Assembly: GCA_003056265.1 (NCBI GenBank)
Contig: NBVN01000002.1
Span: 360,001-392,000 of the forward strand
Direction of reading: 5' to 3'
DNA length: 32,000 nt
Origin: Zestosphaera tikiterensis
GTDB taxonomy: Archaea > Thermoproteota > Thermoprotei_A > Sulfolobales > NBVN01
Shown piece by piece: positions 382-26,820 of this stretch. The notes beneath the pieces are model-generated. The model saw only the letters and a list, made by a program, of their open reading frames with translations. It was not told the origin of the DNA and searched no databases. The position numbers and the translations under genes are program-made. Position 1 is the first letter of the stretch. The number at the start of each line of letters is the position of its first letter.

Positions 382-388
382 TTTTTTT
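382..388 (+). terminator. Oligo-T tract downstream of rtcB (candidate archaeal intrinsic terminator)
   Basis: A run of 7 T begins 27 nt after the rtcB stop codon. Archaeal RNA polymerase terminates at oligo-T tracts. Confidence 0.4.
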
Positions 389-428
389 ACAACTGAAAGC
401 CTCGCCCTTAAGGGCGGGGATGGAAAGC
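387..428 (+). repeat. Short repeat F1, copy 1: TTACAACTGAAAGCC followed by a GC hairpin
   Basis: Near-identical to 6075-6117. The hairpin is CCTCGCCC-TTAA-GGGCGGGG (400-419). Confidence 0.5.
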
Positions 429-559
429 TTATAAGTTGTTTCTTCTAACGTTTTTATGGTGATGATGTTTAATGTGTGTGGGAGGTAAACCTCAAGCAAA
501 TCAATTAAAGCATATATATATAACACACATAACGCCTCCCACATGAAGTTTTGAGGCCT

Positions 560-728
560 TCTAAAGGTCGATGATAAATGAAGATATCCCATAACCCTAA
601 GTCCCCCGAAGGGGGATAGGGGTAATGGGCCGGAAGCCCGGCCCGGAGGTGAATAAAGAAAGATGTACCTCCAAACCAATGAACCGCCCGAAGGGAGACC
701 CTACCCTTCAGGACGGGGAGGAGGTCAG
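560..728. other. GC-rich multi-hairpin intergenic block, candidate ncRNA or structured 3' UTR of the phosphatase gene
   Basis: Consecutive strong hairpins: TCCCCC-GAA-GGGGGA (602-616), GGGCCGG-AAGC-CCGGCCC (627-644), GGAGGT..ACCTCC (645-672), and an imperfect long stem at 684-717. The block ends in GGGGAGGAGGTCAG (715-728), identical to 6104-6117. Confidence 0.4.
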
Positions 729-2039: not shown

Positions 2040-2167
2040 TAAGGGTGAAGACTCTCCAAACCCCCTCTGCATTCGCCTGAGGGAGTCTAAGGCAATGAAG
2101 TTAAGCTCTCAAAAAGCGGGGGTGGAGGAAACTATGAGAAATGAAGACCAAACACAAAAGTCAGACC
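2040..2167 (+). repeat. GC-rich structured repeat family F2, copy E1 (subfamily a)
   Basis: Matches the reverse complement of 7017-7213 (TAAGGGTGAA.., TCTAAGGCAATGAAG.TA, AAAAGCGGGGGTGGAG, ATGAAG..CAGA(A)CC). Its 3' end lies 65 nt from the stop of the convergent TRAP permease gene. Confidence 0.55.
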
Positions 2168-4907: not shown

Positions 4908-5935
4908 GGTTTAAGCTCACTCGGGACTGTAATGCCTTTCTCCTGGTAATATTTCACAGCTCCTGGGTGGAGCGGTATGCTCATACCGTTTAAGGCTTTA
5001 TTCAAAGCTATAGCACTAGCTCTAGCGTGTGCTTGCTGCAGTTCTGAGAGATGGCTAAACATAATGTCTAGCAACGTATACACTATATCGTCGGGAACGT
5101 CGCTACGTACGGCAAGCATAGCCATAACAGCAGCGGTTTTAACGTCTGAAGTCATGCCGCTATACGTTTCCTTAGGAACGACTATAGGCACGAAGAACCT
5201 ATATCCTTGACTAACTAACTTGCTGATGATATCGTCTGGAATTTCAACTAAGTTTACGGGTGTTGTAGCAGCAAGCTGAGTTACTGCTGCTGTGGGTATT
5301 CCAGCAACTACAAACGCCGCATCCACTTGACCTAGCTTAATTGCTTCAGCAGCTTGCGTAAAGTCAAGGTTCTGCACGGTTATTTTATCCCATACACCAG
5401 CAGCCTTAAGTATTAACTCCGCCTCAACTGCTGTGCCGCTACCGGCTGCGCCCACAGCAACTCTCTTACCAGCTAAGTCGTAAATACTTTTTATACCGCT
5501 GTCCGCCTTAACTATAATTTGAATTATCTCAGGATATAGAACAGCCACACCCCTTATAGATTTAGCTGGGGATCCTTCGAACATGTAAATGCCTTTATAT
5601 CCGTAATACGCGATATCGTTTTGAACGAATATTAAGTGAGCGTCGCCTGCCTCTAAAGCCTTAACGTTAGCTACGGAAGCCCCGCTGGATTGAGCTGAAG
5701 CTTCAATCCTTCCTTTAGAGTATTTATTAAGTAGCTCAGCAAGAGCGTTGCCTATAGGGTAATACACGCCTCCCGTACCGCCTGTAAATATCTTCATCTT
5801 AAACGTTGTTACGGTAGGTTGTGCGGTGAAGTACCAAACAACTGCTGCGATAGCCACTATAACGACGACTGCTAAAACTATAGCGAAAGTTTTTGAAAGA
5901 CCCGCGGTCAACAACTTCATTTTTAGTAACACCAC
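4904..5935 (-). CDS. TAXI-family TRAP transporter solute-binding protein
   Basis: Has an N-terminal TM/signal anchor and then the TGGTGGVYYPIGNALAELL motif typical of TAXI receptors. It is the first gene of the three-gene operon. Confidence 0.8.
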   Translation of the reverse strand: MVLLKMKLLTAGLSKTFAIVLAVVVIVAIAAVVWYFTAQPTVTTFKMKIFTGGTGGVYYPIGNALAELLNKYSKGRIEASAQSSGASVANVKALEAGDAHLIFVQNDIAYYGYKGIYMFEGSPAKSIRGVAVLYPEIIQIIVKADSGIKSIYDLAGKRVAVGAAGSGTAVEAELILKAAGVWDKITVQNLDFTQAAEAIKLGQVDAAFVVAGIPTAAVTQLAATTPVNLVEIPDDIISKLVSQGYRFFVPIVVPKETYSGMTSDVKTAAVMAMLAVRSDVPDDIVYTLLDIMFSHLSELQQAHARASAIALNKALNGMSIPLHPGAVKYYQEKGITVPSELKP

Positions 5936-6074
5936 ATATATAAGTTAACGAGTTAATTTAAATGTTTTGATTTACTTACGTTGAATAAAGCATATGAAGC
6001 AGACGATATGGGTTAGTATCTAAAGTTTTTAATGTTTAACCTTAAGGAACGCTTATAACAATTCATAACTAAGT

Positions 6075-6117
6075 TTACAACTGAAAGCCCGTCTTTTAAG
6101 GGCGGGGAGGAGGTCAG
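6075..6117 (+). repeat. Short repeat F1, copy 2; it supplies the Shine-Dalgarno-like GGAGGAGGT of gene 6120
   Basis: TTACAACTGAAAGCC followed by a hairpin and GGGGAGGAGGTCAG. The hairpin keeps pairing through two C-to-T changes that give G.U pairs on the + strand. The ATG at 6120 follows 2 nt later. Confidence 0.5.
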
Positions 6118-6119
6118 AT

Positions 6120-7016: not shown

Positions 7017-7213
7017 GGGTTCTGGCTTCATCGTTTTTAATTACTCACCTTCATCACCCTTATCTTCGCTCCACCCCCGCTTTTCGGAAGCCTAGCTTCA
7101 TTGCCTTAGATTCCCGCATCGCTCCGCCAGACTCCCCCAAGCGAAGGTAGGAGCTTCATCGAGTGTGGTTTCACCCTTACCTCCGTCTCCTCATTGGATC
7201 GTCCACACACCCT
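7017..7213 (-). repeat. GC-rich structured repeat family F2, copy E2 (subfamily a)
   Basis: Begins (on the + strand) GGGTTCTGG immediately after the TAA stop at 7014-7016. Shares CCACCCCCGCTTTT..CTTCATTGCCTTAGA.TCCC with the reverse complement of E1. Confidence 0.55.
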
Positions 7214-7389
7214 CAAATAGAATTAGATAGTAGCATTTATATGCTTTATAACATTGTTTATTAGTTTTAAGGTGATGTAAAGCCCCTCTACTGTTGAAAA
7301 ACCCTTCATTAGCTCCAGATAAAAATTACTTAACCATACACAAGCTTTAAAGATAGAGAGAAAAGAATCAAGAAATTATACAGAACAGG

Positions 7390-9003: not shown

Positions 9004-9082
9004 GACTCCATCACCTCTTACCTGAGTTTGTCATTTATGAGGAAGTAAAATTTTTAAGTTTTTCTTGTTTAATGTTTTTAGT

Positions 9083-9239
9083 GTTGGGTGTGGGCAACCG
9101 TAGCTTGGGATGAGACCCACACCTTCCCGAAGCTGGCGGCGGGAACTGATAGATGATGCACCCTCAGTGAGGGGCTTCAGAGAGGTGATGCAAGCCCTAG
9201 AGGGAGAACCTCCGCCATTCATGGCGGAGAGCCGTCAGC
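9083..9239 (+). ncRNA. Structured ncRNA family F3, copy A (unknown function)
   Basis: A GC-rich 157-nt segment paralogous to 18416-18571. It has a 5' hairpin GGTGTGGG/CCCACACC, a 9-bp closing helix (9132-9140 with 9231-9239) containing one G.U, and internal hairpins. A TATA-like box at 9047-9058 lies about 30 nt upstream. Confidence 0.65.
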
Positions 9240-9374
9240 CTAACCACTCCGTTTAAACATCTTAAAAACGCTTCTTAACTTGAATTTCGGCCTGACTCTT
9301 AGAAAAGAATCACTGCTTTCTTCTTAAAACACTTAACGCATGAAGCCATTTTGCCTTCTATTTAATTCCTCGGT

Positions 9375-9557
9375 ATTCTATCGTAGGGATAGAATGAAAG
9401 AGTGGGTAAGCGTGTGCGGGGGTGCCCGGGGTCGCCCCTAAGAGCCTCCGCAGTGAAGGATGAAGCCAGACGGAGCGGAGGAACAAAACATGAGGGGATG
9501 AAGAAAATAATTAAAAGTATTTGAGAAGGATTAGGAGTATCGTTCAGACCCGAACCC
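9375..9557 (+). repeat. GC-rich structured repeat family F2, copy E3 (subfamily b), candidate sRNA
   Basis: By eye about 85% identical to the reverse complement of 25772-25980. It has a 5' hairpin ATTCTATC-GTAGG-GATAGAAT, and helices GGGGTG/CGCCCC and CCTCCGC/GCGGAGG. It ends ..CAGACCCGAACCC 3 nt before the stop of the convergent radical-SAM gene. Confidence 0.6.
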
Positions 9558-16358: not shown

Positions 16359-17075
16359 TTACCTCTTCTTAAGACCTGTTCTTCTAGCGGCTATATGACC
16401 TACCTTTCTCCCAGGCGGCGCGTTACGCGATACCGTTGAAGGATGAGACTTCCTTTGATGGATACCGCCACCGAACTTATGGCTTACGGCGTTCATGGCA
16501 ACGCCTCTAACTCTAGGCCATTTATGAGCTTTAACCTTCCATTTATGGTATGCCGCACCAGCCTTCAATAAGGGCTTCTCTATCCTCCCCGCTCCAGCGG
16601 GAACTCCTACGGTTGCTCTAGCCGTGCTTAAAATAGGTCTTTGCTTCTTACTCGGCAGGAGAACTATCGTGTAATTGCCTGACCTACCTAAAACTAAGGC
16701 GTAACTACCTGCTTGCCTTGCTAGCTTACCGCCGTCTCCAGGATTTAACTCTATATTGTATACTTTAGTACCTTCAGGTATCTTACCTAATGGGAGGGTA
16801 TTGCCTACTAAAGGTGGTGCGTCCGGACCTATTGAGACTTTCTGACCTACGTACATACCTTCAGCAGCAGGTATGTAATATTCAACACCGTTTTCTAATT
16901 GAATTCTCGCTAAGGGAACCCAACGCCCCGGATCGTGAATAAACTCCATCACAACACCGGTTAACGTATGTTCTGAAGGCGGGGGATATTTGGCGGGGGC
17001 TGGATGTAGGTGTCCAGGACTTCTAAAGTTTTGACCTCCTCTACCAGCCCTCTGCTGTAACGTTTTCTTACCCAT
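16359..17075 (-). CDS. rpl2: 50S ribosomal protein L2
   Basis: MGKK..QRAGRGG.., ..GDGGKLARQAGSYA.., ..GGG.H.. and the basic C-terminus are unmistakably uL2. A GGTGA Shine-Dalgarno lies 6 nt upstream of the ATG. Confidence 0.95.
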   Translation of the reverse strand: MGKKTLQQRAGRGGQNFRSPGHLHPAPAKYPPPSEHTLTGVVMEFIHDPGRWVPLARIQLENGVEYYIPAAEGMYVGQKVSIGPDAPPLVGNTLPLGKIPEGTKVYNIELNPGDGGKLARQAGSYALVLGRSGNYTIVLLPSKKQRPILSTARATVGVPAGAGRIEKPLLKAGAAYHKWKVKAHKWPRVRGVAMNAVSHKFGGGIHQRKSHPSTVSRNAPPGRKVGHIAARRTGLKKR

Positions 17076-17101
17076 CTCAACTCACCCCATACCTAGCTTC
17101 G

Positions 17102-18223
17102 CTATTTATGGCGGAGTAAATGTTTATAAGTTTTAAGTGCCCAGTATAGGGGTATCTCATCTCTATCTGCCTTGAAACTGCATTTACTGCATATCATTAT
17201 CCTAGTTCTCTTTGTCTTTTTATATACTGTTAGCTTATTCCCACATTTTGGACAAAAAGATGAATATAGCCTTTCTTCAATCCAGTATATCCCATACCAC
17301 GACAATATGTTCTTTAAGCTCCTCGCAAAGCTTAGCAATGTTTTCTGAAGTCTTGTATCACGTAATGAGGTGTGCTCTGGTATATCTATTACTATAAGAG
17401 GTCGTTTGTTATGTCTTTTAGCGATTCTTCTAATCTTCCTGACCACTCTTGCAACACTTTGCTGGATCCACCCTTTATAGGAATATGATAGTGCCCTTCT
17501 TATCAGTACTGGGTAGATGTTAATCTGTCTCTCAGTTAAGCAACCCATATTGTATAACCTGTCTCTAAGCATCATAAGTCTCTTGGTGTAAACCCTTTTG
17601 TTGGATAGGTTCGGCGGTCTAAGCTTTATGGTTTTAATAAGCTTCCCATCCCAGAAATGCACCACAATGCCGTAATCTGAGTTTATGTCTGCTACCACGA
17701 GCAGGGGGTCCTCTGGAACGTCTACAACATTCTTTTTATGAAGAACTATCTGCACTACAAGCTCGTTGTTCCTCTCAAGCACTCTAACATACCTTTCATC
17801 TGGAGACTCTTTAAGTCTCTTCTCAAGCAATCTTAGTGCTCTCTTAGGTATTGGGTACTCCCTAGTTTTATCTAACCTGAGAACGAGCTTTCCATCTCTA
17901 ATATACGCTCCTTTCCTCTCATGAATAGCATCGACAAGCGGTATGTTTAGTATTACTTTATATGGTATGGGAGTTCTTTCAATGTTTTTGAATAGATATA
18001 GGGGATCCCCTTCATCCAGAAGATTATCACGCCAATAGCTCTTAACGGATCTAGTGAGTGTATTAACGACCTCTGAATCAGGATCTATACTGAGTCTCTT
18101 ACACCAGTATATATGAGATGCCAGAACTCTATACTTATAGATAAACTCCTTCACATAGCTATCTAGAGGATATTTAAGTGTGAGAACCCTATAGCCTTCA
18201 AGGGTTCTCAATTTCGAAGACAA
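17102..18223 (-). CDS. TnpB-like protein (IS200/IS605 OrfB family; RuvC-like nuclease with a zinc ribbon)
   Basis: Ordered motifs VVADINSDYG (RuvC-I Asp), LIVIDIPE (RuvC-II Glu), YSSFCPKCG..x..CSKCSFKADRDE (CxxC..CxxC zinc ribbon and RuvC-III Asp), in 373 aa. The putative start is a TTG at 18223 or 18211. Confidence 0.7.
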   Translation of the reverse strand: MSSKLRTLEGYRVLTLKYPLDSYVKEFIYKYRVLASHIYWCKRLSIDPDSEVVNTLTRSVKSYWRDNLLDEGDPLYLFKNIERTPIPYKVILNIPLVDAIHERKGAYIRDGKLVLRLDKTREYPIPKRALRLLEKRLKESPDERYVRVLERNNELVVQIVLHKKNVVDVPEDPLLVVADINSDYGIVVHFWDGKLIKTIKLRPPNLSNKRVYTKRLMMLRDRLYNMGCLTERQINIYPVLIRRALSYSYKGWIQQSVARVVRKIRRIAKRHNKRPLIVIDIPEHTSLRDTRLQKTLLSFARSLKNILSWYGIYWIEERLYSSFCPKCGNKLTVYKKTKRTRIMICSKCSFKADRDEIPLYWALKTYKHLLRHK

Positions 18224-18343
18224 CTACTATCATCTCTTTTCTAGCTTTGTATAGGTTTTCAGCTTTATGCGTGAGCACCTTCGGAATAGTTATGATGTAC
18301 TTACCTTTTCCATGGGACGATATCCTAGCCTTGAAGCACATCA
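18197..18343 (-). CDS. Small ORF (48 aa), possible AbrB/SpoVT-like DNA-binding protein
   Basis: Not in the supplied track because it is under 60 aa. MMCFKARISSHGKGKYIITIPKVLTHKAENLYKARKEMIVVVFEIENP, where the ..YIITIPK.. segment resembles the AbrB swapped-hairpin motif. It overlaps the TnpB-like start by 27 nt. Confidence 0.35.
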
Positions 18344-18382
18344 TAGTTCCATACCTTGTTCCGTGATATTTAGTTCCAAAAA

Positions 18383-18390
18383 TTTATAAA
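18383..18390. promoter_or_regulatory. Palindromic TATA box TTTATAAA between the divergent small ORF/TnpB-like genes and ncRNA F3-B
   Basis: The box lies 26 nt before the conserved start of the RNA (18416) on the + strand and about 40 nt before the ATG at 18343 on the - strand. The equivalent A/T box of copy A is at 9047-9058. Confidence 0.45.
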
Positions 18391-18415
18391 CTTTTTACAA
18401 TTTAATATGTATTGA

Positions 18416-18571
18416 GTTGGGTGTGGGCAACCGTAGCTTGGGATGAGTCCCACACCTTCCCGGAGTTGACGGCGGGAGCTGATGGGTGATGCGCCCTCAG
18501 TGAGGGGCTTCAGAGAAGTGATGGAAGCCCTAGGGGAAGAACCCCTGCCACAAATAACAGGGGCCGTCAGC
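18416..18571 (+). ncRNA. Structured ncRNA family F3, copy B (unknown function)
   Basis: Paralogue of 9083-9239. One hairpin is replaced compensatorily (CCCCTG-CCACAAATAA-CAGGGG at 18542-18563 against TCCGCC-ATTCAT-GGCGGA in copy A). The closing helix 18465-18473 with 18563-18571 has one U.G. No ORF of 60 aa or more crosses it. Confidence 0.65.
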
Positions 18572-18788
18572 TAATTCAATAACAGTTTCTACTATATAAA
18601 CATAACTTTCCATTTCTTTAAAATAAGAGAAATACATTAACTTCTCAATAAATATTAAGTATGGTTTTCATATATAATGTATGTTTTACAGCACCATTAG
18701 CATGATTTAGTCAGTTTAAGAACAGCCATGTTTCTGTAGTAGTAAAGAGCTAAACTTCGTCCTTTAACTATAGTTATTACTACTTAAG

Positions 18789-24899: not shown

Positions 24900-25570
24900 A
24901 ACGAAAGTCCAGAATGATGGTTGACCTTAAAGTTTTAGAAGGTAAATCCGTAATAAAAGGACAAATTCTGTAATTTCTGTAGTTATTATGTAACGGATGG
25001 GATCTAGAGGATATTTTTGAGAGAATATCTACATCTTTAAAAGAGAATGTATTAGCAACTAAGGTTTTTAAGAGAGGAGATTATCGTTAAAAGCCTAAAC
25101 ATCAACGAATGGAAACACGCCTTGAATTACTACTACTGCCCTTAAAGAAAATGGATATGAGATAACCTCAATCTTGGAACTTAAACTAGATATGAATAAT
25201 GAAGAAATAGCGAAAGTTAGCTATGAAAGAGTCGAGAACTTTAATAACCTTTTGAAGAAGATTCCGGAAATAGCGCTATTAAAATATAACATTACATTTC
25301 AGGGATATTTTTAGTAAGTTTTACTAAGGATACTGCCGTTAAATCTCCTGCACTCCTGTACGTAGTTAAAAGAACGTTCTCATCATTAATGCGATAGAGG
25401 ATCTATACAATAAGTATCGTGATCAAAAAGAGAACGGAAAGGTACTAGCATCACATCAACGCTTTTCTTTCAATGGCAATGAGAGTCTTACTTATTGGAG
25501 ATTTAGACATTGTTAAAAACGTAAATGCGGAATTAAACTATATATAAAAAATATAATATTTTAATGGATT
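24900..25570 (+). pseudogene. Heavily decayed copy of the DUF433/DUF5615 toxin-antitoxin module
   Basis: Colinear nucleotide similarity (by eye about 65-70%) to 26110-26742, for example GTTGACCTTAAAG..GGTAAATCCGTAATAAAAGGA against GTTGACCCCAAG..GGTAAACCCGTAATAAAAGGA. No open frame survives. Confidence 0.6.
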
Positions 25571-25615
25571 TAGTGAGCCCGCGGGGACTCGAACCCCGGA
25601 CCTCCGCCGTGTGAG
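25571..25615 (-). repeat. Partial duplicate of the 3' half of tRNA-Val (att-like remnant)
   Basis: 43 of 45 nt are identical to 26743-26787, covering the anticodon loop through the 3' end. Similarity stops exactly inside the anticodon loop. Confidence 0.85.
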
Positions 25616-25771
25616 AACGTAATGATATTCGCAAACTCGTATTATTGGTATTTATGTAATCCAAAGCGATAACCATAGCCGATATCAACAGTGATATTAT
25701 TTGTCTTACGATATGCATGTCTCGGTTAGAATAATCTATAAAGACCTTTGTTATAATAGTGTCTAGGGGGA

Positions 25772-25980
25772 GGGTTCGGGTCTGAACGTTACTTCTAATT
25801 ACTTTTAGATACTTTTAATTGTTTTCTTCATCCCTTCATTTTTTGTTCCCCCGCTCCGTCTGGCTTCATCCTTCACTGCGGAGGCTCTTAGGAGTGACCC
25901 AAGCACCCCCGCACACGCTTCAAATCTTCCCCAATCTCTACGTTATTTTCCTTAGGGATCCACCTACCCTACAGGTGGAT
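25772..25980 (-). repeat. GC-rich structured repeat family F2, copy E4 (subfamily b)
   Basis: Reverse-complement paralogue of 9375-9557. Its 5' hairpin has different arms but the same loop (ATCCACCT-GTAGGGT-AGGTGGAT). Its helices GGGGTG/CACTCC and CCTCCGC/GCGGGGG carry G.U pairs only in this orientation. Confidence 0.6.
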
Positions 25981-26099
25981 AAACCCCCTCATCAACCCCA
26001 AAACAAAACTACCCAACCAACATATATAAACCTTTAAAATAGAAAGAAATTAAAAACATTTAAGAATATCAAGGAATTACATAAAGGGCGATAGGGCTG

Positions 26100-26327
26100 T
26101 TGACCGAATTCGAGAATAGAATAGTAGTTGACCCCAAGATTATGGGGGGTAAACCCGTAATAAAAGGAACAAGGGTTCCCGTGTATTTTATCCTAGAGTT
26201 ATTATCTAATGGTTGGAGTATAGATGATATTTTAAGAGAATATCCGCATCTCTCAAGGGAAGACGTGTTAGCAGCTATTAAGTACGCTGCCAAGGTCTTG
26301 AGGGAGGAAGTTATTGTCAAAGCCTAG
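26100..26327 (+). CDS. DUF433 family protein (putative antitoxin)
   Basis: ..IVVDPKIMGGKPVIKGTRVPVYFILELLSNGWSIDDILREYPHLSREDVLAAIKYA.. matches the DUF433 consensus (dp.i.gGkP.i.GTRi.V..il..l..G.s.eeil..YP.Lt.edi.aAl.ya). Confidence 0.8.
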   Translation: MTEFENRIVVDPKIMGGKPVIKGTRVPVYFILELLSNGWSIDDILREYPHLSREDVLAAIKYAAKVLREEVIVKA

Positions 26328-26668
26328 ACTTCTAGCAGATTAAAATATACCTCGAACTGTTATTATTACACTTAGAGAAAAAGGATATGACATAGCCTCG
26401 GTTCGGGAGCTTAGTCCAGGTATGAGCGACGAGGAAGTAGTAGAGCTAGCTATAAAAGAGTCGAGAATTTAATAACGTTTGACAAAGACTTTGGAAGAAT
26501 AGCACTCTTAAAACCTAGAGTTCCAGGAATAATTTTACTAAGAATACCACCATTAAATCCCCTATACATAGCCGAAAGAATACTCTCAACATTGAAAGAA
26601 TAGAAAATCCATACAATAAGTTAATCATAGTCAGAAAGAAAACAATAAAAATAGTCATATTACGTTAA
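26314..26668 (+). pseudogene. DUF5615 (PIN-like, putative toxin) pseudogene
   Basis: ..RLLAD*NIPRTVIITLREKGYDIASVRELSPGMSDEEVVELAIKESR / ILITFDKDFGRIALLKPRVPGIILLRIPP.. / ..LIIVRKKTIKI. There is one in-frame TAA (26341-26343) and at least two frameshifts relative to the DUF5615 consensus. Confidence 0.7.
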
Positions 26669-26742
26669 CAATTATCCTAGGCGATGATGAGACGCCTTAC
26701 CCATTGCAGGTATTACTGAAGATGAAACTACGATATTAATTT

Positions 26743-26820
26743 TGGTGGGCCCGCGGGGACTCGAACCCCGGACCTCCGCCGTGTGAGGGCGGCGTCCTAA
26801 CCAGGCTAGACGACGGGCCC
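26743..26820 (-). tRNA. tRNA-Val (anticodon CAC), with CCA encoded
   Basis: A manual cloverleaf fold works: acceptor GGGCCCG/CGGGCCC, D stem GUCU/GGAC, anticodon stem CCGCC/GGCGG with loop CUCACAC, T stem CGGGG/CCCCG with loop UUCGAGU, discriminator A and CCA. There is no intron. Confidence 0.9.

What the first reader, a model, noticed from the sequence alone, without database searches (positions are those of the whole stretch)
17076..18571. TnpB-like nuclease gene fused into the rpl2 transcription context, with an AbrB-like ORF and a divergent structured RNA sharing a palindromic TATA box
The 373-aa ORF has the TnpB/Cas12-ancestor architecture, and all three putative catalytic acidic residues appear to be present: RuvC-I D in VVADINSDYG, RuvC-II E in IDIPE, and a CxxC..CxxC zinc ribbon with RuvC-III D in ADRDE.

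The locus is atypical for an IS200/IS605 element in four ways.
- No tnpA is present.
- The stop codon is only 26 nt from the rpl2 ATG, which has its own GGTGA Shine-Dalgarno sequence. Little room is left for a right end or for the usual 3' omega-RNA scaffold, and the gene's 3' part is AT-rich with no obvious strong structure. TATA-like boxes for rpl2 (TTATAAA, CATAAATAG) lie inside the TnpB-like 3' coding region.
- A 48-aa AbrB-like ORF (18197-18343) overlaps the TTG start.
- A perfectly palindromic TTTATAAA box (18383-18390) lies at promoter distance from both the small ORF and the divergently oriented 156-nt structured RNA F3-B (18416-18571). The conserved scaffold of that RNA is followed directly by sequence that differs between the two F3 copies, which is the layout expected of a scaffold-plus-variable-guide RNA.

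Hypothesis (inference only): this is a domesticated or non-canonical TnpB-like module whose partner RNA is encoded divergently upstream rather than at the gene's 3' end. The orphan F3-A copy at 9083-9239 would be a second guide-type RNA acting in trans. The alternative is a degraded IS remnant that happens to lie next to an unrelated sRNA gene.
Basis: inference. Interest (0 to 1): 0.75.

Follow-up and report, generated by a model that had tools for sequence, protein, structure and literature searches.

The report
Archaeal TnpB transposon with back-to-front guide RNA
This is a small jumping gene of hot-spring archaea that carries a Cas12-ancestor (TnpB-type) nuclease, and its probable guide RNA is made from its own promoter on the opposite strand rather than from the tail of the nuclease gene.

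Summary
The 373-aa ORF (17102-18223, minus strand) is a TnpB/Cas12f-fold protein.

The locus is a 1,485-bp mobile element (17087-18571) of the IS200/IS605 kind, not a domesticated module or a decayed remnant.
- It sits just after a TCACC motif, 11 nt before the rpl2 start codon.
- Related Zestosphaera contigs carry the empty site, with rpl23 running directly into rpl2.
- The left-end hairpin overlaps the nuclease gene's stop codon, so the gene reads towards the left end, the reverse of the usual layout.
- F3 starts about 25 nt from a symmetric TATA box and runs across the right end into flanking DNA, the scaffold-then-guide layout of a TnpB omega-RNA.

F3 sits beside this gene in every related locus I could check. 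It shows covariation with strand-specific G-U pairs. It also occurs about twice as often alone, in 215-270-bp mini elements made of left end, TATA box and F3. F3-A (9016-9239) is one of these.

No RNA or cleavage data exist. The element's right-hand junction in this window may be recombinant or misassembled. The closest published relative is an archaeal "RHH/MazE-TnpB" clade, described as non-mobile.

The parts
17082..17086 (+). TCACC target motif flanking the left end. It is the presumed transposon-adjacent motif and overlaps the rpl2 Shine-Dalgarno sequence GGTGAG on the minus strand.
   Evidence: Homology with the empty-site contigs L138, L140 and L141 stops exactly at 17086. TCAC lies 4-9 nt left of the left-end core in 45 of 54 distinct copies, plus two outliers at 16 and 18 nt. 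Two reciprocal empty sites show insertion directly after TCACC.
17087..18571 (+). Full-length element, 1,485 bp, written in left-end to right-end (F3) sense.
   Evidence: Boundaries come from the empty-site comparison and from the point where copies stop being alike. Other full copies measure 1,463-1,484 bp.
17097..17116 (+). Left-end subterminal hairpin: CTTCGCT, loop ATTTAT, GGCGGAG. All seven positions pair on the + strand only if G-T pairs are allowed. The nuclease gene's stop codon (17102-17104) lies inside it.
   Evidence: Direct reading. The homologous motif GGAAGCCTCGCC-TTTTAA-GGCGGGGAGG occurs at the same place in all copies. It folds only weakly in this copy.
17102..18223 (-). TnpB-family nuclease gene, 373 aa, reading towards the left end. 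Invariant residues are D179, D280, C324, C327, C345, C348 and D355.
   Evidence: AlphaFold2 model with pLDDT 87 and pTM 0.81. The best Foldseek hits in PDB are all Cas12f or TnpB, E 1.6e-12 to 3e-8, TM 0.5-0.59. Invariant residues; profile alignment to TnpB-like chains.
18198..18344 (-). Small conserved ORF, 48 aa. It may be an AbrB/MazE-like DNA binder and presumed regulator. It overlaps the nuclease start codon by 26 nt.
   Evidence: Conserved upstream of the gene in L001, L002, L003, L004 and L007. Alignments; 42 homologues of 47-83 aa. One of 8 members hits PF04014 at E 0.0024. The model is beta-beta-alpha with no significant fold match.
18376..18398 (.). Shared divergent promoter: a near-palindrome (CCAAAAA TTTATAAA CTTTTTAC) around the TATA box at 18383-18390.
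   Evidence: In other full copies the arms form perfect 7-10 bp palindromes and change together, for example GAGCAAAAAG..CTTTTTGCTC against GTACCAAAAG..CTTTTGGTAC. Mini elements keep only the F3-side half.
18414..18571 (+). F3-B, the omega-RNA-like scaffold. It ends in the right-end hairpin followed by GCCGTCAGC.
   Evidence: Covariance model hit at 156 bits. Covariation: 18 of 35 pairs change on both sides, against 5.8 in shuffles, and 97.6% of cells pair. The G-U pair at model pair 6-52 is found in 79 of 81 sequences, which fixes the strand. Folding z-score -3.4. No Rfam family matches.
18572..18591 (+). Presumed guide segment: flanking DNA read through from F3-B. The length is assumed.
   Evidence: Sequence differs between copies from this point on. 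The same flank carries a mini element in L145 and L146.
9011..9015 (+). TCACC motif flanking the mini element.
   Evidence: Direct reading. The 48 nt from here align with the left end of the full copy (TCACCCCATACCTAGCTTCGCTATTTATGGCGGAGTAAATG against TCACCTCTTACCTGAGTTTGTCATTTATGAGGAAGTAAAAT).
9016..9239 (+). Mini element F3-A, 224 bp: decayed left end, TATA-like box TTTTTAAG (9051-9058) and F3 scaffold (9081-9239). It has no protein gene.
   Evidence: Covariance model hit at 173 bits. No nuclease gene lies upstream. Its architecture matches the mini elements in other contigs. The left-end hairpin is degenerate here.
9240..9259 (+). Presumed guide segment of F3-A. The length is assumed.
   Evidence: Divergence from F3-B starts here.
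16359..17075 (-). rpl2, the gene immediately downstream of the insertion. Here it is cut off from rpl3-rpl4-rpl23.
   Evidence: Pfam hit. 100% identical to Zestosphaera tikiterensis L2. The intact operon is seen in L138 and L142-L144.

Best explanation
Window 17087-18571 is a non-autonomous transposon of the IS200/IS605 ('peel-and-paste') kind. The host is a Zestosphaera-like crenarchaeon.

Layout (shown):
- The element inserted directly after a TCACC motif, between the rpl23 stop codon and the rpl2 start codon.
- It made no target duplication.
- Its two subterminal hairpins lie on the same strand and resemble each other.
- It has a two-gene operon: a small ORF followed by a TnpB-family nuclease with a shifted RuvC-II carboxylate. 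The operon is transcribed TOWARDS the left end.
- It has a separate RNA gene, F3. F3 starts about 25 nt from a symmetric TATA box and runs across the right end into flanking DNA.

Mechanism (inferred):
- F3 is this nuclease's omega-RNA: a 155-nt scaffold followed by a 3' guide copied from the flank.
- The F3-nuclease complex recognises the vacated site, TCACC followed by the flank sequence. It cuts that site so that recombination restores the element.
- A Y1 transposase supplied in trans moves the element. A candidate with an almost identical left-end hairpin lies on a contig that also carries F3.
- The small protein binds the palindromic promoter and limits expression.
- Mini elements (left end, TATA box and F3), such as F3-A, borrow the nuclease in trans.
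- rpl2 is now probably expressed by read-through from the element.
For: Mobility (shown):
- Empty against occupied alleles at rpl23|rpl2 in contigs with 98.9% nt identity. Homology breaks at 17086.
- Reciprocal empty sites in L059 and L073 show insertion after TCACC, an element end of ..CCGTCAGC and no duplication.
- Genomic contexts differ: aIF5B|NDK, lysJ|lysK and rpl2.
- TCAC lies 4-9 nt left of the left-end core in 45 of 54 distinct copies, with two more at 16 and 18 nt.
- Mini elements keep the last codons of the nuclease gene (GGTGCTTTATTGCC) or the start of the small ORF, so they are deletion derivatives.

Nuclease (shown):
- Confident model whose best PDB matches are all Cas12f or TnpB.
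- Invariant D179, D280, four Cys and D355.

F3 as an RNA on the + strand:
- Covariation and G-U pairs.
- The TATA box is kept at a fixed distance even in mini elements.

F3 as partner of the nuclease:
- F3 is present upstream in every close-family locus with enough sequence, in Vulcanisaeta, Ignisphaera, Desulfurococcaceae and Zestosphaera.
- There is no 3' untranslated region, because the left end overlaps the stop codon.
- A canonical TnpB never reads into F3 on the same strand.

Transposase candidate:
- L113 carries a 142-aa Y1 transposase plus a canonical tnpB. Its left end reads GCTTCGTCCTTTAGGGCGGGA, against GCTTCGCCCTTTAGGGCGGAG in the F3 family.

Precedents:
- Omega-RNA-only PATE elements that need TnpB in trans (PMC10055086).
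- The Arc repressor in IS605 elements (10.64898/2026.09.24.754181).
Against: - There are no transcript data for F3 and no binding or cleavage data.
- The RuvC-II glutamate is missing at its canonical position, so nuclease activity is an assumption.
- The fold of the small protein is unresolved.
- In this window both end hairpins are weak.
- F3-B looks recombinant. Its flank matches L145 at 99.5%, but the 5' two-thirds of F3 differs from L145 at several positions. Independent contigs stop at 18408 and 18520. The right-hand junction, and so the 'guide' of this copy, may result from recombination or from an assembly join across the repeat.
- No transposase lies in the window among the ORFs scanned. 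The link to the L113 transposase rests on hairpin similarity only.
- More distant relatives of the protein (L016, L017) have no F3 upstream.
Confidence: 0.7

Rival explanations
1. The module is a non-mobile toxin-antitoxin pair, as proposed for the archaeal RHH/MazE-TnpB clade. The small protein would be an antitoxin that blocks the TnpB toxin, and any guide RNA would lie in the 3' untranslated region.
For: [quoted passage not shown] It classes them as non-mobile and proposes a toxin-antitoxin role. Here the small ORF overlaps the nuclease start codon and always accompanies the gene.
Against: The element is mobile, with empty sites and many copies. There is no 3' untranslated region, because the left end overlaps the stop codon. 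A conserved RNA gene sits upstream instead. An addiction-type side effect of the two proteins is not excluded. It is not shown that this family is the clade the paper describes.
Confidence: 0.12
2. F3 is not a guide RNA. It would be the right-end DNA structure needed for transposition, or an outward-reading RNA that acts antisense on neighbouring genes. The nuclease would then work with another RNA or with none.
For: The last F3 hairpin resembles the left-end hairpin, so it also serves as a transposition signal. In L014 the read-through would be antisense to the end of lysJ. Two thirds of F3 copies have no nuclease gene beside them.
Against: Covariation spans all helices, not only the terminal hairpin. 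It includes many G-U pairs that would be A-C mismatches on the other strand. A TATA box is kept at a fixed distance in mini elements. The 155-nt scaffold followed by variable flank is the standard omega-RNA layout. The element has no other non-coding space.
Confidence: 0.13
3. This is a degraded insertion-sequence remnant that happens to lie next to an unrelated small-RNA gene.
For: Family-model hits to TnpB are weak. The end hairpins are weak in this copy.
Against: The ORF is intact and full length, matching 60 or more homologues at 55-78% identity. It is identical in independent assemblies. The triad and zinc ribbon are invariant. The linkage to F3 and the spacing between them are conserved across genera.
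Confidence: 0.02

Closest known systems
IS200/IS605-family TnpB (OMEGA) elements without tnpA (IS1341-type), e.g. ISDra2 TnpB and its right-end omega-RNA
   Same: TnpB/Cas12f fold with a split RuvC domain and a zinc ribbon. Subterminal hairpins on one strand, no target duplication, and insertion 3' of a short conserved motif at the left end. The RNA scaffold ends at the right end and continues into the flank as a guide. The transposase is supplied in trans (PMC10055086).
   Different: The nuclease gene reads towards the LEFT end, and its stop codon lies inside the left-end hairpin. The RNA is on the opposite strand, has its own TATA promoter and does not overlap the gene, so it cannot be processed out of the tnpB mRNA. 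A small regulator-like ORF precedes the gene. The RuvC-II carboxylate is an Asp shifted by one position.
Archaeal 'RHH/MazE-TnpB' clade (Altae-Tran et al. 2023, PMC10691335)
   Same: Archaeal, including crenarchaeal, TnpB with a rearranged catalytic site. It lies directly downstream of a small AbrB/MazE- or RHH-type gene.
   Different: The paper classes that clade as non-mobile, proposes a toxin-antitoxin role and expects the guide RNA in a long 3' untranslated region. Here the module is inside a mobile element, has no 3' untranslated region, and has a divergent upstream RNA gene plus mini derivatives. Whether this family belongs to that clade could not be checked, because no supplementary data are held. 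The group that paper links to RHH/MazE has RuvC-III Asp replaced by His, whereas D355 is intact here.
PATE / MITE-like derivatives of IS200/IS605 that encode only an omega-RNA
   Same: F3-A and at least 71 other copies consist of left end, promoter and RNA scaffold/right end, with no protein gene. The concept is described for Geobacillus.
   Different: These are archaeal. They carry a TATA promoter directly in front of the RNA, and they outnumber the full copies about two to one in this sample.
Arc (ribbon-helix-helix) repressor of IS605-family elements
   Same: A very small protein encoded in the element next to a palindromic promoter.
   Different: No sequence or fold relation was shown. The small ORF here gives only one weak MazE/AbrB hit. 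Binding is untested.
IscB/IsrB omega-RNA and tracrRNA genes of type V CRISPR systems
   Same: The guide RNA is encoded upstream of, or apart from, the nuclease gene.
   Different: The IscB omega-RNA is on the same strand as its gene with the guide at its 5' end (PMC10691335). F3 is divergent with the guide at its 3' end, and there is no CRISPR array.

Membership tests
TnpB / Cas12 superfamily | WED-REC-RuvC-zinc-ribbon fold | tested here: met
   AlphaFold2 model with pLDDT 87. All 49 Foldseek matches at E <= 0.001 are Cas12, TnpB or Fanzor; the best is E 1.6e-12 with TM 0.58.
TnpB / Cas12 superfamily | Three RuvC carboxylates (D, E, D) in motifs I, II and III | tested here: inconclusive
   D179 and D355 are invariant and align with motifs I and III. 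At motif II the canonical Glu position is hydrophobic, and the invariant D280 follows it. The model's coordinates could not be inspected.
TnpB / Cas12 superfamily | CxxC..CxxC zinc ribbon between RuvC-II and RuvC-III | tested here: met
   C324, C327, C345 and C348 are invariant. PF07282 scores 26.1 bits against a cut-off of 26.3.
TnpB / Cas12 superfamily | Curated sequence models (PF01385 OrfB_IS605, NF040570 guided_TnpB) reach their thresholds | tested here: not met
   No PF01385 hit. NF040570 scores 18 bits against a cut-off of 100.
TnpB / Cas12 superfamily | RNA-guided DNA cleavage next to a transposon-adjacent motif | not testable with these tools
   Needs biochemistry.
IS200/IS605 transposons | Similar subterminal hairpins at both ends on the same strand, with no terminal inverted repeats | tested here: met
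   The left end reads ..CCTCGCC TTTTAA GGCGGGG.. and the right end ..CCCCGCC CTTCAG GGCGGGG AGCCGTCAGC, both in F3 sense. The covariance model's 3' hairpin also hits the left end.
IS200/IS605 transposons | Insertion 3' of a conserved 4-5 nt motif at the left end, with no target duplication | tested here: met
   Shown by the empty sites and the TCAC statistics.
IS200/IS605 transposons | Mobilised by a Y1 (HUH) TnpA | tested here: inconclusive
   No TnpA lies in the element or among the window ORFs scanned. A Y1 TnpA with a near-identical left-end hairpin is on contig L113, which also holds an F3 copy.
IS200/IS605 transposons | tnpB reads towards the right end, with the omega-RNA overlapping its 3' end | tested here: not met
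   The gene reads towards the left end, and the RNA is divergent with its own promoter.
AbrB/MazE (SpoVT-AbrB) DNA-binding domain (small ORF) | Match to PF04014 or to a swapped-hairpin fold | tested here: inconclusive
   One of 8 members hits PF04014 at E 0.0024. No match in the PDB profile search. The model is beta-beta-alpha with pLDDT 83, and the best Foldseek match has E 1.6.
Any described RNA family (Rfam 15) for F3 | Covariance-model match | tested here: not met
   No match at gathering score or at E <= 10.

The most novel reading that the evidence does not exclude
This would be a lineage of archaeal TnpB transposons that has uncoupled guide-RNA production from the nuclease mRNA. The guide gene has its own promoter on the opposite strand, and it has multiplied as guide-only mini elements that outnumber the nuclease genes. 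The result is a dispersed set of stand-alone guide genes serving one nuclease in trans. This could be a natural intermediate between the overlapping omega-RNA of IS605 and the separately transcribed guide genes of type V CRISPR systems. It would also mean that a clade published as a non-mobile toxin-antitoxin system is in fact a working transposon.
Probability: 0.5. Interest if true: 0.75.

Novelty: new variant of a known kind. Interest (0 to 1): 0.62.

Why it matters
- In characterised TnpB systems the omega-RNA overlaps the 3' end of tnpB and can be processed from its mRNA. An element with an inverted gene and a separately promoted guide RNA shows that this coupling is not obligatory. It also gives a compact, promoter-defined scaffold of 155 nt from hyperthermophiles that could be tested as a genome editor.
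- The result questions the published reading of archaeal MazE/RHH-linked TnpBs as immobile toxin-antitoxin pairs.
- It shows such elements sitting inside essential operons (rpl23|rpl2, lysJ|lysK). This is presumably tolerated because the element reads out through its left end.
- The abundance of guide-only mini copies makes trans use of one nuclease by many guide genes directly testable.

Tried and rejected
- Rfam at gathering score and at relaxed thresholds gave no family for F3.
- Pfam, NCBIfam and a PDB sequence search with the single protein gave only zinc-ribbon noise.
- The first attempt to scan genomes with a 21-sequence alignment failed because no block was conserved enough.
- The covariance model with filters off found no F3 upstream of the distant relatives L016 and L017. 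It gave only a 12.9-bit hit at the 3' end of the L017 gene, too weak to use.
- F3 is absent from viral contigs. The protein is absent from the phage and plasmid collections.
The later model gave no significant fold match.
- I first took the TATA-like box right of the element (rc of 18592-18600) for rpl2's native promoter. The empty-site contig L138 showed that this flank is not rpl2's ancestral upstream region.
- I considered RNase P type T, H/ACA and C/D-box sRNAs for F3, from memory. I dropped them for lack of any model hit and because of the transposon architecture.
- I tested whether F3 is the 3' omega-RNA of the canonical TnpB found with the Y1 transposase. No canonical tnpB reads into F3 on the same strand.
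- Literature searches found no description of a divergent, separately promoted omega-RNA in a TnpB transposon. This is not proof of absence.
Full report
**1. What is in the window**

The window comes from a Desulfurococcales archaeon. Its L2 protein is 100% identical to that of the MAG Zestosphaera tikiterensis.
- ORF 17102..18223 (-), 373 aa, TTG start, with its stop codon 26 nt before the rpl2 ATG.
- A 48-aa ORF, 18198..18344 (-), overlapping that start codon.
- TTTATAAA at 18383-18390.
- Two copies of a GC-rich 155-nt sequence, F3, at 18414-18573 and 9081-9241. They are 84% identical, promoter included.
- Rfam has no family for F3.

**2. The protein**

Sequence models barely see it. PF07282 scores 26.1 bits against a cut-off of 26.3. 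NCBIfam guided_TnpB scores 18 bits, over the zinc ribbon only.

The database holds about 60 full-length homologues at 55-78% identity, and more distant sets at about 35% and 25%. An AlphaFold2 model built on 65 sequences is confident, with pLDDT 87 and pTM 0.81. Its best PDB matches are all Cas12f or TnpB:
- AsCas12f, E 1.6e-12, TM 0.58.
- ISFba1 TnpB, E 5.8e-11.
- ISDra2 TnpB, E 3e-8.

Invariant residues are D179, N181, D280, the four cysteines and D355. In a profile alignment to a TnpB-like chain, 'liDvp' lines up with 'VEDLN'. The usual glutamate position is therefore hydrophobic, and D280 follows it. This is a rearranged RuvC-II motif, so activity is plausible but unproven.

**3. The module recurs and F3 belongs to it**

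I fetched loci that encode relatives: Vulcanisaeta, Ignisphaera and Desulfurococcaceae MAGs, plus hot-spring metagenomes.
- The neighbouring genes differ from locus to locus.
- The small ORF lies directly upstream of the gene in all the loci compared.
- An F3-like sequence lies further upstream on the opposite strand.
- Similarity between loci stops exactly at GCCGTCAGC on the F3 side. On the gene side it stops just past a hairpin motif that overlaps the gene's last codons.

A covariance model built from seven F3 sequences found 132 matches in the DNA fetched.

On 85 distinct sequences the predicted structure is well supported:
- 97.6% of cells pair.
- 18 of 35 pairs change on both sides, against 5.8 in shuffles.
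- Shifted controls collapse.
- Many pairs are G-U, for example pair 6-52 in 79 of 81 sequences. These would be A-C mismatches on the other strand.

The alignment was fitted to the model, which inflates pairing. An independent RNAalifold run gave the same helices. F3 is therefore an RNA read on the window's + strand, divergent from the nuclease gene. It starts about 25 nt from the TATA box.

**4. It is a transposon, and the orphans are mini elements**

Counts of F3 copies (sites not de-duplicated):
- 34 have the nuclease gene at a fixed 172-208 nt.
- 71 have no gene.
- 26 could not be judged.

The gene-less copies share one architecture:
- Variable flank ending in TCAC(C).
- A left-end hairpin, ..GGAAGCCTCGCC TTTTAA GGCGGGGAGG..
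- A TATA box.
- F3, ending GCCGTCAGC, followed by variable flank.

The same hairpin lies at the 3' end of the nuclease gene in full copies, where it encodes the conserved C-terminus LPALKGEAS on the other strand. Some mini copies keep the last codons of the gene or the first codons of the small ORF, so they are deletion derivatives. Full copies are 1,463-1,484 bp. Mini copies are 215-270 bp, with one of 318 bp.

F3's own last hairpin resembles the left-end hairpin and lies on the same strand. This is the IS200/IS605 arrangement, not inverted repeats. TCAC lies 4-9 nt left of the left-end core in 45 of 54 distinct copies. Two further copies have it at 16 and 18 nt, and most of the remaining copies show one-base variants.

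Three sets of empty against occupied alleles fix the boundaries.
- L059 and L073 are reciprocal. Each carries a mini copy where the other is empty. Insertion is directly after TCACC, the element ends ..CCGTCAGC, and nothing is duplicated.
- For the window itself, contigs L138, L140 and L141 (L2 identical, 98.9% nt) carry rpl3-rpl4-rpl23-rpl2. They match the window only up to 17086. The empty site reads ..CTCACC|AGCTAAATAAG... An independent assembly, L139, has the occupied state.
- L145 and L146 carry a mini copy after ..AATCACC at the flank that lies right of F3-B in the window.

The full element is therefore 17087-18571 and F3-A is a mini element at 9016-9239. The first 48 nt after F3-A's TCACC align with the left end of the full copy.

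**5. Consequences for the layout**

In characterised IS200/IS605 elements the conserved target motif flanks the left end. tnpB reads towards the right end, and the omega-RNA overlaps its 3' end and continues into the right flank as the guide (established knowledge; PMC10691335 and PMC10055086).

Here the motif-bearing left end is at the gene's 3' end, so the gene is inverted. The only RNA that reads across the right end is F3. The element has no other non-coding space. F3 therefore has the position, size and scaffold-then-variable-flank layout of an omega-RNA. Unlike the canonical one, it has its own promoter and does not overlap the gene.

The promoter is a near-palindrome around the TATA box.
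- In other full copies the arms are perfect and change together (GAGCAAAAAG/CTTTTTGCTC against GTACCAAAAG/CTTTTGGTAC).
- Mini copies keep only the F3-side half.
- This fits one symmetric TATA/BRE unit firing both ways, or an operator for a dimeric small protein, or both (inference).

**6. The transposase**

No tnpA lies in the element or among the window ORFs scanned with Pfam.

Its left end is ..TTAC|AACTGAAAGCTTCGTCCTTTAGGGCGGGAATGG..GCTTATAAG. The hairpin is nearly the same as in the F3 family, but the target motif differs. Mobilisation in trans by such an enzyme is an inference. A canonical tnpB never reads into F3 on the same strand. In L042 a mini copy sits next to a canonical tnpB fragment that stops at the element's end, as if inserted into that gene.

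**7. Caveats specific to this window**

- The flank right of the full copy (the HTH_10 gene) is not rpl23.
- In L145 and L146 that flank carries a mini copy. The flank matches the window at 99.5%, but the 5' two-thirds of F3-B differs from the L145 F3 at several positions.
- Independent contigs stop at 18408 and 18520.
- The window copy is therefore either a recombinant between a full copy at rpl2 and a mini copy at the HTH_10 site, or an assembly join across the repeat. The 'guide' at 18572 onwards may belong to the mini copy.
- Both end hairpins fold weakly here.
- The left junction and the link to rpl2 are solid. rpl2 is cut off from its operon and lies 26 nt behind the nuclease gene in the same orientation. 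It is probably expressed from the element (inference). The lysJ|element|lysK case has the same orientation.

**8. The small ORF**

It is conserved. The alignment shows F..A..SSHG.G..II.IP. There are 42 homologues, and one cluster was seen on 110 contigs. One of eight members hits PF04014 (MazE/AbrB) at E 0.0024. The model is beta-beta-alpha with no significant fold match. 'AbrB-like' stays a lead. A repressor role, by analogy with Arc of IS605, is an inference.

**9. Comparison with what is known**

The closest published description is the archaeal 'RHH/MazE-TnpB' clade (PMC10691335).
- It classes them as non-mobile and interprets them as toxin-antitoxin pairs.
- It expects the guide RNA in the 3' untranslated region.

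If this family is part of that clade, which I could not verify, the evidence here revises that picture. Omega-RNA-only mini elements are known in bacteria. I found no report of a TnpB element with an inverted gene and a divergent, separately promoted guide RNA.

**10. Verdict**

The non-canonical TnpB module with a divergent partner RNA and a trans-acting orphan copy holds. Domestication does not.
- It is a new variant of a known kind.
- The transposon architecture is shown. The guide function of F3, the nuclease activity, the regulator role of the small protein and the identity of the transposase are inferred.

Noticed in passing
window 383-727 (+); stub at 6074-6118 (+): A second mini-element family. 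It has a left end TTAC|AACTGAAAGCCTCGCCCTTAAGGGCGGGGATGG, a TATA box GCTTATAAG, a different GC-rich structured RNA (folding z-score -4.69) and an end ..GACGGGGAGGAGGTCAG. The left end is of the same type as the autonomous tnpA-tnpB element in L113. At 6074-6118 a left-end hairpin is fused directly to the right-end tail.
   Followed up: partly
window 9408-9557 (+) and 25772-25921 (-): A GC-rich repeat of about 150 nt, 89% identical, in inverted orientation. One copy lies 170 nt downstream of F3-A. It has no Rfam match and its nature is unknown.
   Followed up: partly
window 24911-26820: tRNA-Val (CAC) lies at 26743-26820 (-). Its 3' half is duplicated at 25569-25615, within two diverged tandem segments of about 1.2 kb (24911-25615 and 26118-26787, 72-96% identity in blocks). 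This looks like a remnant of integration or duplication at a tRNA gene.
   Followed up: no
window 2078-2127 and 7069-7118: A 50-nt inverted repeat, 86% complementary, with arms 4.9 kb apart that bracket a TRAP-transporter gene cluster. Unexplained.
   Followed up: no
window 18179-18214: A near-perfect hairpin with an 11-bp stem (TGAGAACCCT..AGGGTTCTCA). It lies inside the first codons of the nuclease gene, where it overlaps the end of the small ORF. Other loci lack it.
   Followed up: partly
window 17086/17087 and 18400-18520; L138, L139, L145, L147: The Zestosphaera population is polymorphic at this locus. Some contigs have the intact rpl3-rpl4-rpl23-rpl2 operon, and others have the element in front of rpl2. 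The window's F3-B looks like a recombinant between two element copies or an assembly join across the repeat.
   Followed up: yes
L113 12400-14039: An autonomous IS200/IS605 element with a 142-aa Y1 transposase followed by a canonical tnpB. Its left-end hairpin is nearly identical to that of the F3 family, and the same contig holds an F3 copy (7106-7268).
   Followed up: partly
L042 29-453; L044 about 1070-1140; L072 about 5920-5960: Element copies lie in or next to other elements. In L042 a mini copy abuts a canonical tnpB fragment that stops at its end. In L044 a left-end remnant sits directly before another TCAC and left end. In L072 a second left end follows 25 nt after a right end.
   Followed up: no
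L014 2650-4151: A full element lies inside the lysine-biosynthesis operon, between the aminotransferase gene and the M20 peptidase gene. Its nuclease gene ends 8 nt before the next start codon, and its F3 read-through would be antisense to the upstream gene.
   Followed up: no
L017 4141-4276: In a 25%-identical relative of the nuclease, the only F3-like signal is a 12.9-bit hit (E 0.06). It lies at the gene's 3' end on the same strand, which is the canonical omega-RNA position. It is too weak to interpret.
   Followed up: no
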